From assembly GCA_964016885.1 (NCBI GenBank), contig OZ024757.1, positions 40,486,001 through 40,550,000 of the forward strand: 64,000 bases of DNA, read 5' to 3'. The DNA comes from Eledone cirrhosa (lineage: Eukaryota). Shown one piece after another: positions 23,966 through 29,447 of the stretch. Position 1 is the stretch's first letter; each line of letters opens with the position of its first letter. The notes below the pieces were generated by a model. The model did not search any database. It saw nothing but the letters and a program-made list of their open reading frames with translations, and was not told the origin of the DNA. The position numbers were made by a program, and so were the translations under genes.

Positions 23966-24016
23966 AATAGACATATACAGACACGGGGTCCTGACTTTTT
24001 CCTATATATATATAGT

Positions 24017-24444
24017 TGGAGGCTTCATAGAGAGTGGTGATCCAGGTCTGAAGTTCGATCCTGGTCGGGAGTAGGGTTCCCGATAAACCTTTTCAGTTTT
24101 TTTTTCTATGGGATGTAAAATAAAAAACTGAATAATAGTATATGCACCTATGACCGAGATTGAACCCAAGACCAGGATCTCCACCGTCTGTAGTACTTAC
24201 CACTAGCCCACTGGCTATGCTACGAAAATCTAATGAAAATTCATACTTATAAACCTACTTTCAAAATGTTCACTACAAAGTGCTGTGGTGTCGTTCATGT
24301 CTTTCTTAATGTTATTGCTCCTACTTAAGGTCGACTTCTAAATCATTTGGGTGTTCTATAAACTACATCCTCGTTTTGTTTCTCATCTATCTAGACTATA
24401 TTTTAACCTGTAATCCATGTTTCATTTCTGTTGCACCTCGTTTC
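24017..24444. mobile_element. Fold-back element with two convergent tRNA-like units (copy 1, left arm truncated)
   Basis: Colinear and highly similar to 28785-29209. Confidence 0.8.
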
Positions 24445-24503
24445 TCCCACTCATCTCTCTCTCTTTTTAATTTGATTATTTTAACAAACAAATATATATA
24501 TAT

Positions 24504-28097: not shown

Positions 28098-28722
28098 TAT
28101 TAATAATATTGTGATGGAGAGAGAGTTACCGTTTCCATAACTCTCTGATTTAATGTCTTGCTAATCATCACAAGGATCTCCAGATAACTCGCTGGGCACC
28201 ATTGTTATTTGATGTTCTTTTTTGTAGTTTTTGTGTGTGTTTTTCATTTGTTTTTCTTTTCATACTTTATAAATGTGCTTTAAAAGAATGGAACACCTTG
28301 ATATGAATATAAAATTATTAGATTATCCATGATTAATTTTCAATTTGCATCTTTACCAGAACTATTCAAATGTCATTGGTCAAAGCATTATGAGGAGAAA
28401 AAAAAACACAGTAACAACAGCAACAAAATAAATATAATAAAATGTTACATAAAAATAAATAAATCAATAAATAATTAGAAGAATAAATAAATAAAATAAA
28501 CAAATAAATGAATATATAAATGAATGAATGCAAGGTGCTCAGTGGCAGCTTCATAATTTCGATTGAAGATATACAAAATTAAAATAACTGTAGAAGCATT
28601 TACAAGTATAAAATGTAGTTTCAAAATTGTTAGATTCTCATCGCATCTGTCTATCTACACACACAAAAACCGACACACACACACACACATATATTTATAT
28701 AGACACTTACATACATACATAC

Positions 28723-29209
28723 AAAGTAGGTTTATAATCATTAATTTTCATTACACTTTTGTAATTGTCTCGGTGGCCTAGTGGAAGGTATCATAGACGG
28801 TGGTGATCTTGGTCTGAAGTTCAATCCTGGTCGGGAGTAGTATTCCCGGTAAACACTTTCAGTTTTTTTCTATGGGATGAAAAATAAAAACTGAAAAAGT
28901 TTACATAACCCTCTCGACCAGCATTCGAACCCAAAGCCAGGAGCTCTACCGTTTAAGTACCTACCACTAGGCCACCGAGACATCTTCGATAATCTACTGA
29001 AAATTCTTACTTATAAATCTACTTTCAAAATTTTCAAAACAAAATGATGTGGTGCCGTTCATGTCTTTCTTAATGTTATTGCTCCTACTTAAGGTCGACT
29101 TCTAAATCATTTGGGTGTTCCATAAACTACATCCTGGTTTTGTTTCTCATTTATCTAGACTATATTTTAACCTGTAGTCCATGTTTCATTTCTGTTGCAC
29201 CTCATTTCT
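28723..29209. mobile_element. Fold-back element with two convergent tRNA-like Pol III units (28767-28835 +, ~28912-28981 -) and a ~185-bp one-sided extension (copy 2)
   Basis: GTCTCGGTGGCCTAGTGG at 28767 and its reverse complement ending at 28981; B boxes AGTTCAATCC / GGTTCGAATGC; outer IR AAAGTAGGTTTATAA / TTATAAATCTACTTT. Confidence 0.8.
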
Positions 29210-29316
29210 ACCCCCCCCCCACCTCTCTGTGATATTTGAATCTACTATGATTTGGGCTTACCTTATTCATAAATATATATTTTTGCATGTCAGTTAGATT
29301 CAAACTTACAATGATT

Positions 29317-29447
<131 letters not shown>

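What the first reader, a model, noticed from the sequence alone, without database searches (positions are those of the whole stretch)
28723..29209. Mobile fold-back carrying two convergent tRNA-like Pol III genes with upstream TATA boxes and terminators
Seen: two tRNA-like units face each other, each with A box TGGCCTAGTGG, a B-box-like GTTC(G)AAT, pairable ends, TTTATAA ~30-36 bp upstream and a downstream T-run in the central TTCAGTTTTT.../...AAAAACTGAA hairpin. A ~185-bp extension upstream of the minus unit is strongly conserved in the second copy (24017-24444). Because upstream sequence travels with it, this is not a normal SINE. Arm-specific differences are shared between the copies, so the fold-back predates amplification. 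The unit is weakly tRNA-His(GTG)-like (TAGTGGTAAGTACT...GTGG). Inference: this is an undescribed non-autonomous element with the same asymmetric fold-back plan and microsatellite context as the HHR elements, able to make two small Pol III RNAs or one long hairpin RNA.
Basis: partly seen in the sequence, partly recalled or inferred. Interest (0 to 1): 0.75.

Follow-up and report, generated by a model that had tools for sequence, protein, structure and literature searches.

The report
Transposon spreads paired Pol III genes
A cut-and-paste transposon family in this animal genome carries two facing tRNA-like genes in an estimated 1,600 copies, and the copies have extra mutations over just the stretch that RNA polymerase III would open and read, which likely means many were transcribed in the germ line.

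Summary
The window holds two decayed fragments of a ~790-bp module: two convergent tRNA-like Pol III units (TATA, A box, B box, T-run; arms 79% alike). About 1,600 copies are estimated. The module rides in a non-autonomous hAT transposon, MITE-module-MITE plus deletion derivatives; 15 of 18 TIR-bounded copies have an 8-bp target duplication. It is not a SINE, not a tRNA, and probably not Penelope-mobilised.

The new result is a mutation footprint. In both arms the substitution rate steps up about 18 nt before the tRNA-like start, stays about 1.4-1.9 times the flank rate to the terminator, and drops to baseline at the B box (107 copies). It replicated in 53 fresh copies. This matches transcription-associated mutagenesis at active tRNA genes (PMC6130373).

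Against: arms with damaged boxes show no drop, no RNA data were available, and no parent locus or exact transposase partner was found. The scan index held no look-alike note.

The parts
28723..29318 (+). Copy A of the cargo module, cut on the left (the first ~170 bases of the module are missing); no hAT end lies in the window
28731..28737 (+). TATA-like box of the plus unit, 36 nt before the tRNA-like start
   Evidence: identical in both consensus arms
28767..28869 (+). Plus tRNA-like Pol III unit: A box 28774-28784, B box 28819-28827 (45 nt apart in the consensus), trailer, T-runs 28857-28859 and 28863-28869; no cloverleaf
28857..28898 (.). Central hairpin holding the two facing T-run terminators
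28886..28981 (-). Minus tRNA-like Pol III unit: start 28981, A box 28974-28964, B-box-like 28930-28921, T5 at 28898-28894
29011..29017 (-). TATA-like box of the minus unit
29028..29209 (+). Right extension; its first ~75 bases are the mirror partner of a left segment that is lost in this copy
29229..29318 (+). Right terminal segment of the module, followed by (TA)n at 29319-29440; in other copies a MITE 5' end or a second module follows this TA tract
24013..24445 (+). Copy B: plus unit cut (B box 24053-24061 kept), hairpin 24091-24132, minus unit A box 24210-24200, B box 24165-24157, TATA 24253-24247, full right extension
24466..24494 (-). Inverted 29-base piece of the module's left end, next to a TA tract; similar inverted stubs occur in L083 and L085

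Best explanation
Two facing tRNA-like genes with their own TATA boxes and terminators ride as cargo inside a non-autonomous hAT DNA transposon, and RNA polymerase III has likely transcribed them at many insertion sites in the germ line, leaving extra mutations over the read stretch. Shown: the module sits between two same-strand copies of a hAT MITE. Whole composites and their deletion derivatives are bounded by CAGTGGCGGA terminal repeats and 8-bp target duplications. The mutation excess runs from about -18 to the terminator in both arms and spares the TATA region and the B box. Inferred: a hAT transposase working in trans moved the composite by its outer ends. Slippage or gap repair between the many TA tracts made the tandem modules, deletions and lone fragments such as the two in this window. 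TFIIIB and TFIIIC cover the TATA region and the B box, while the opened DNA between them is damaged. The ~90-100 nt RNAs do not fold as tRNA and are probably by-products. Where the module first came from is not known.
For: Mobility: same-strand MITE sequence lies within 1.5 kb in 25 of 30 loci picked by a core 27-mer, 24 of 30 picked by the module's left end, 19 of 30 and 23 of 30 in two BLAST-ranked sets, against 0 of 70 unrelated loci. It lies within 750 bp in 49 of 60 fresh loci. MITE-module-MITE is seen in L257, L258 and L260. Of 18 TIR-bounded elements enclosing the core, 10 have a perfect and 5 a one-mismatch 8-bp duplication (12% expected from mismatched flanks), including non-TA ones such as CCCATCAT and CCCACATC. 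A 4,435-bp hAT sharing the first 10 TIR bases, with an 8-bp duplication and a DUF4371 + Dimer_Tnp_hAT reading frame, is in the genome. Footprint: in 107 copies, with 22 subfamily columns dropped and trinucleotide context and copy age fitted on flanks, observed/expected was start 1.58, middle 1.50, trailer 1.52, A box 1.26, B box 0.75, TATA region 0.78, centre 1.00. The rate ratio is 1.89 (1.59-2.21) after adding arm pairing and local GC, and the best step lies at -18 in each arm. Variant sharing between copies is close to permuted data, the excess survives pruning to 56 copies, and 96 of 107 copies show it. Replicate, 53 fresh copies: A/T sites 0.110 at -18..-1 against 0.033 in flanks; step at -16 and -17; 51 of 53 copies. 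A host SINE head shows no excess over its body (24 copies). Active tRNA genes have a 20-base 5' flank about four times more divergent, peaking 12-15 nt upstream (PMC6130373, passages).
Against: No dose response: arms with a mutated TATA (1.63, 46 arms), a mutated B box (1.69, 46 arms) or the TATA missing (1.57, 10 arms) are no lower than intact arms (1.46-1.48). Only arms lacking the B box are lower (1.15, 17 arms). The time of each loss is unknown, and more mutated arms are more likely to have a hit box. The two arms are homologous, so they are not independent tests of a context effect wider than the trinucleotide. A second tRNA-bearing repeat (T2) shows no footprint in 30 young copies chosen for high identity (low power). 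The spectrum is broad; C-to-T on the sense strand is only slightly above G-to-A. 16 of 20 widened lone loci still have no MITE sequence within about 5 kb, and neither window copy has any. No transposase gene with this MITE's subterminal sequence was found in 80 hAT loci. Many duplications are TA-rich, and L006/L033 share flanks.
Confidence: 0.66

Rival explanations
1. The module is hAT cargo but silent. The mutation excess comes from chromatin or a wider sequence context (a nucleosome on the GC-richer units, TFIIIC binding without transcription, or hairpin extrusion), not from Pol III transcription.
For: No drop in arms with damaged or missing TATA. Homologous arms share context. Columns paired between the arms mutate slightly less (0.80). 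No footprint in T2.
Against: The excess is highest in the AT-rich -18..-1 zone (0.110 against 0.030 just upstream). It holds at every level of local GC and arm pairing. It ends at the terminator (centre 1.00) and skips the B box. A GC-rich SINE head shows none.
Confidence: 0.2
2. The module is, or was, an independent TA-targeting mobile element (like the T2 repeat, or a Penelope-driven element) that later nested between MITEs.
For: Fixed ends in (TA)n, head-to-tail tandems and short inverted end stubs resemble Penelope-like insertions (PMC8557442, passages). 16 of 20 widened lone loci lack MITE sequence. T2 carries a tRNA gene and has fixed ends in TA.
Against: Most copies are MITE-linked. Lone and MITE-linked copies have the same age (0.072 and 0.071). 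The arms are 21% diverged and fixed, each with its own extension. No hammerhead in 28690-29240; no hyperedited copy. Both units end in T-runs, so Pol III cannot make a full-length template. Other insertions push MITE parts 1.7-4.2 kb away (L242, L251, L254).
Confidence: 0.2
3. The units are a useful part of the transposon: TFIIIC/Pol III binding insulates it from silencing, or the small RNAs or their hairpin act as decoys, which helped the loaded form spread.
For: 17 of 30 MITE 5' ends picked by the TIR alone have the module within 1.5 kb. 24 of 25 promoter and terminator columns are identical between arms that are 79% alike (p = 0.018, motifs chosen after seeing the arms). Many deletion derivatives keep both units.
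Against: Empty MITEs are also common (13 of 30). The predicted RNAs have no special fold (z +0.7 and -0.7). The A box is not conserved. No compensatory pattern or arm conversion was evident.
Confidence: 0.14

Closest known systems
Multicopy Pack-TIRs of animals, e.g. frog Pack-hAT-N8_XT and Drosophila Ssk-FB4 (PMC8277862; passages seen)
   Same: A TIR transposon, here hAT, carries internal non-transposase sequence to new sites, each with its own target duplication; copies lose an end over time.
   Different: That survey found four multicopy cases in reference genomes, of a few copies each, with protein-gene cargo; 'tRNA' occurs 0 times in its main text. Here about 1,600 copies carry two whole Pol III units between two MITE copies. 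No parent locus was found, so capture from the host is not shown.
Non-autonomous hAT elements (MITEs) of the DUF4371-type transposase group; nearest in this genome is L194:506-4940
   Same: CAGTGGCGGA terminal repeats, 8-bp duplications, internal deletion series.
   Different: Subterminal sequence differs from L194, so L194 is a relative and not a shown partner. The cargo is unusual. Dfam and Repbase could not be checked.
Transcription-associated mutagenesis at tRNA genes (PMC6130373; passages and section 8 seen)
   Same: [quoted passage not shown]
   Different: In real tRNA genes purifying selection hides the gene body. Here the apparently unselected body shows the excess, with a trough at the B box, across hundreds of dispersed copies.
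Penelope-like elements and non-LTR retrozymes (PMC8557442 passages; 10.64898/2026.07.22.740005 abstract; PMC7229834 passages)
   Same: TA-microsatellite context, tandems, inverted stubs.
   Different: No hammerhead found, arms old and fixed, hAT ends and duplications on the loaded copies.
tRNA-derived SINEs (a host family shares the A box)
   Same: A box and B box at tRNA spacing.
   Different: Upstream DNA travels with the unit, a terminator follows about 25 nt after the B box, there is no body or tail, and the likeness to the host SINE stops at the A box.

Membership tests
hAT non-autonomous DNA transposon | Short terminal inverted repeats | tested here: met
   14-bp CAGTGGCGGACTGG...CCAGTCCGCCACTG around loaded copies; absent from the two window fragments
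hAT non-autonomous DNA transposon | 8-bp target site duplication | tested here: met
   15 of 18 with at most one mismatch, 12% expected
hAT non-autonomous DNA transposon | Autonomous partner with matching ends | tested here: inconclusive
   A relative sharing 10 TIR bases was found; none of 80 transposase loci held this MITE's subterminal sequence; only part of 846 candidates were seen
Pack-TIR | Transposon sequence on both sides of the cargo, with distinct target duplications | tested here: met
Pack-TIR | A non-transposon parent locus for the cargo | tested here: inconclusive
   A profile of the unit found only element copies in the loci held at that point and the window; an A/B-box pattern found an unrelated SINE; genome searches are swamped by copies
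tRNA gene | A and B boxes at tRNA spacing, T-run terminator | tested here: met
   45 nt in both consensus arms; T-runs follow
tRNA gene | Cloverleaf fold | tested here: not met
   T-stem and anticodon stem do not pair; no ARAGORN or Rfam call
SINE | Copy begins at the Pol III start and has a body and 3' tail | tested here: not met
   More than 110 bases upstream of each unit travel with it; terminator about 25 nt after the B box
Penelope-mobilised element / retrozyme | Hammerhead ribozyme | tested here: not met
   No Rfam hammerhead match in 28690-29240 at E<=10; the module's two end segments were mostly outside that stretch
Penelope-mobilised element / retrozyme | Tandem or inverted copies in (TA)n with 5' truncation | tested here: inconclusive
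   Tandems and stubs present, but truncations occur on both sides and several are due to later insertions
Active Pol III gene | Pol III occupancy and transcript | not testable with these tools
   Only the indirect mutation footprint

The most novel reading that the evidence does not exclude
A cut-and-paste transposon carries its own working two-gene Pol III cassette, has planted it at more than a thousand germ-line-active sites, and gains from it through TFIIIC insulation or small-RNA decoys. The copies also give a selection-free, base-resolution map of Pol III mutagenesis.
Probability: 0.15. Interest if true: 0.85.

Novelty: new variant of a known kind. Interest (0 to 1): 0.62.

Why it matters
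In real tRNA genes, selection hides how much Pol III itself mutates the gene body. Here more than a thousand apparently unselected copies of one complete Pol III gene pair, next to their own untranscribed control DNA, show a sharp start near -18, an excess up to the terminator and a trough at the B box. If transcription is the cause, the family is a ready natural reporter for Pol III mutagenesis and a way to read germ-line activity from sequence alone. It also shows a DNA transposon scattering complete Pol III promoters and TFIIIC sites across a genome, at copy numbers far above the multicopy animal Pack-TIRs in PMC8277862.

Tried and rejected
tRNA identity: ARAGORN and Rfam gave nothing, so His was dropped; other identities rested on recall only and are not claimed.

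U6-type promoter: 20 U6 loci show TATA near -30, most with an octamer-like motif near -75; no match to the arms' shared upstream block was seen by eye. Identical runs between the arms are not more clustered than chance (p 0.09 and 0.60).

ADAR hyperediting as a sign of an RNA intermediate: none; the highest per-locus counts were 10 A-to-G and 13 T-to-C, in multi-copy loci.

Arm-to-arm conversion: not evident; frequent variants are subfamily states.

Helitron, Kolobok and Dada were considered from recalled end rules and PMC8869645 (passages) and rejected, because the loaded copies have hAT ends.

Outside the genome: 0 matches in viral contigs; 9 metagenome matches, none extending beyond the 21-mer. 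RNA: no RNA holder listed.

T2 as a second footprint test was uninformative. The box-damage dose test gave no support.

Literature: ten full-text searches listed no paper whose title or abstract start describes this element or a Pol III footprint in transposon copies.

Full report
Observation. The fold-back is far beyond chance (z -13.7). A second copy at 24013-24460 is 85% identical. Neither ARAGORN nor Rfam calls a tRNA. In the family consensus the A and B boxes are 45 nt apart in both arms, but the T-stem and anticodon stem do not pair. These are tRNA-type promoters with TATA boxes and terminators, not tRNAs.

Family. The genome is 3.0 Gb; earlier scan notes call it octopus-like. A search with the finding gave 2,827 first-look candidates, of which 40 were scored. 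A 27-mer from the extension has 428 exact matches. 12 of 44 copies chosen on other grounds carry it exactly, which gives roughly 1,600 copies. The full module is about 790 bp: TA tract, 94-bp left end, 74-bp outer arm, plus unit, hairpin, minus unit, 182-bp extension, CT tract, 91-bp right end, TA tract. The arms are 79% identical. Copies are 5% (younger type) or 7% (older type) from their consensus in a star-like, weakly supported tree. The fold-back is therefore older than the spread. Window copy A groups weakly with the older type.

How it moves. Many copies are bounded by 14-bp terminal repeats starting CAGTGGCGGA. The same MITE also exists without the module. The largest form is MITE, TA tract, module, TA tract, MITE (L257, L258, L260). 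Other loci hold two or three modules in tandem, and the rest read as internal deletions. Same-strand MITE sequence lies within 1.5 kb in 25 of 30, 24 of 30, 19 of 30 and 23 of 30 loci of four sets, against 0 of 70 unrelated loci (an earlier count was discarded because one probe matched microsatellites). It lies within 750 bp in 49 of 60 fresh loci. Of 18 TIR-bounded elements enclosing the core, 15 have an 8-bp duplication with at most one mismatch (12% expected); several are not TA repeats. Eight-base duplications with short TIRs mark hAT (established knowledge). A 4.4-kb hAT with the same first 10 TIR bases and a DUF4371 + Dimer_Tnp_hAT frame is present, but none of 80 transposase loci had this MITE's subterminal sequence. 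Against a purely hAT story: I widened 20 of 29 lone loci to about 10 kb and 16 still had no MITE sequence, and the window has none. Later insertions do push MITE parts several kb away, and lone copies are no older than linked ones. An earlier life as an independent TA-targeting element stays possible.

Penelope test. Earlier notes on this genome describe hammerhead fold-backs as Penelope-driven and sometimes ADAR-edited (unchecked leads). I tested those marks here. There is no hammerhead in 28690-29240 and no hyperedited copy. The arms are old and fixed, and each has its own extension. Tandems and short inverted stubs do occur and resemble Penelope-like insertions (PMC8557442, passages), so this rival is weakened, not excluded.

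The mutation footprint. The units vary more among copies than their flanks. In 107 copies, dropping 22 subfamily columns and fitting trinucleotide context and copy age on flanks, observed/expected was 0.78 at the TATA region, 1.58 at the start, 1.26 at the A box, 1.50 in the middle, 0.75 at the B box, 1.52 in the trailer and 1.00 past the terminators. Variant sharing between copies is close to permuted data, pruning relatives down to 56 copies keeps the excess, and 96 of 107 copies show it. The excess is thus recurrent mutation after insertion, not lineage history. With base, arm pairing and local GC as covariates the rate ratio is 1.89 (1.59-2.21), the B box is 0.94 (0.67-1.22), and the best step is at -18 in each arm. 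A replicate on 53 fresh copies, with the regions fixed beforehand, gave A/T rates of 0.033 (flank), 0.030 (-54..-19), 0.110 (-18..-1), 0.065 (body) and 0.027 (B box), G/C rates of 0.076, 0.079, 0.124, 0.110 and 0.068, steps at -16 and -17, and 51 of 53 copies. A host SINE head shows no such excess over its body (24 copies). Active tRNA genes show a roughly fourfold excess in the 20 bases upstream, peaking 12-15 nt before the gene, attributed to Pol III initiation (PMC6130373, passages and section 8). The excess begins upstream of where a transcript would start, so it is hard to explain by RNA editing or reverse-transcription errors (inference; the start-site and open-complex positions are recalled knowledge).

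Results against the footprint reading. Arms with a mutated TATA or B box, or with the TATA missing, are no lower (1.57-1.69 against 1.46-1.48); only the 17 arms lacking the B box are (1.15). The second tRNA-bearing repeat, T2, shows no footprint in 30 young, similarity-selected copies. The arms are homologous, so a context effect wider than three bases is not excluded. The A box is not conserved, and the B box is at baseline, not clearly under selection. No transcript or occupancy data could be examined.

Function. The predicted RNAs have no unusual fold, and no compensatory change or arm conversion was evident. 17 of 30 MITE 5' ends have the module nearby and 13 do not. The cassette is most likely a passenger that kept working; a benefit to the transposon is open.

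Known relatives and novelty. It is a hAT non-autonomous family by TIR and duplication. It works like a multicopy Pack-TIR (PMC8277862, passages), though no parent locus was found. Ten literature searches listed nothing describing this element or such a footprint in transposon copies; Repbase, Dfam and supplements were not seen. The scan index had no look-alike or nearby note. Verdict: new variant of a known kind, interest 0.62, carried mainly by the replicated footprint.

Noticed in passing
L123, L125-L133, L316-L345 (repeat T2; e.g. G000:C4:143426265-143429645): A young ~1.7-kb repeat (140 first-look candidates, 97-98% identical) with fixed ends in TA tracts, a terminal hairpin (loop flipped in L133), a near-intact tRNA gene called Ala(GGC) about 310 bp inside with a T-run, and an inverted copy of an internal ~175-bp piece at its far end. 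It made up 10 of the top 13 Rfam tRNA hits. Its class is unknown.
   Followed up: partly
L194:506-4940 (G000:C4:298032005-298036439) and L346-L375: A young hAT family (about 30 copies at 90-100% protein identity, some with 870-885 aa open frames) with CAGTGGCGGA ends and 8-bp duplications.
   Followed up: partly
L139-L149, L152-L156 (G000:C19:31.78-31.84 Mb): A tandem array of about 30 U6 variant genes at ~1.8-kb spacing; in several units a SINE has replaced the promoter upstream of the TATA box.
   Followed up: no
L122, L124 (G000:C1:243.65-243.68 Mb): A dense tandem array of tRNA-Thr-like genes with varied anticodons and short AT-rich spacers.
   Followed up: no
L229/L230 (G000:C2:83.78 Mb): A near-perfect inverted duplication centred on the module's central hairpin (MITE end, left segment and plus unit mirrored), suggesting breakage and fold-back at the hairpin.
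   Followed up: no
L104, L120, L226: Three copies are cut at the same base of the extension, each followed by a CA(G/C) start that looks like another hAT element: an apparent target hot spot.
   Followed up: no
   Followed up: no
G000:C2:343586204-343596194: Four MITE 5' ends at ~3.3-kb spacing, a tandem array not examined.
   Followed up: no
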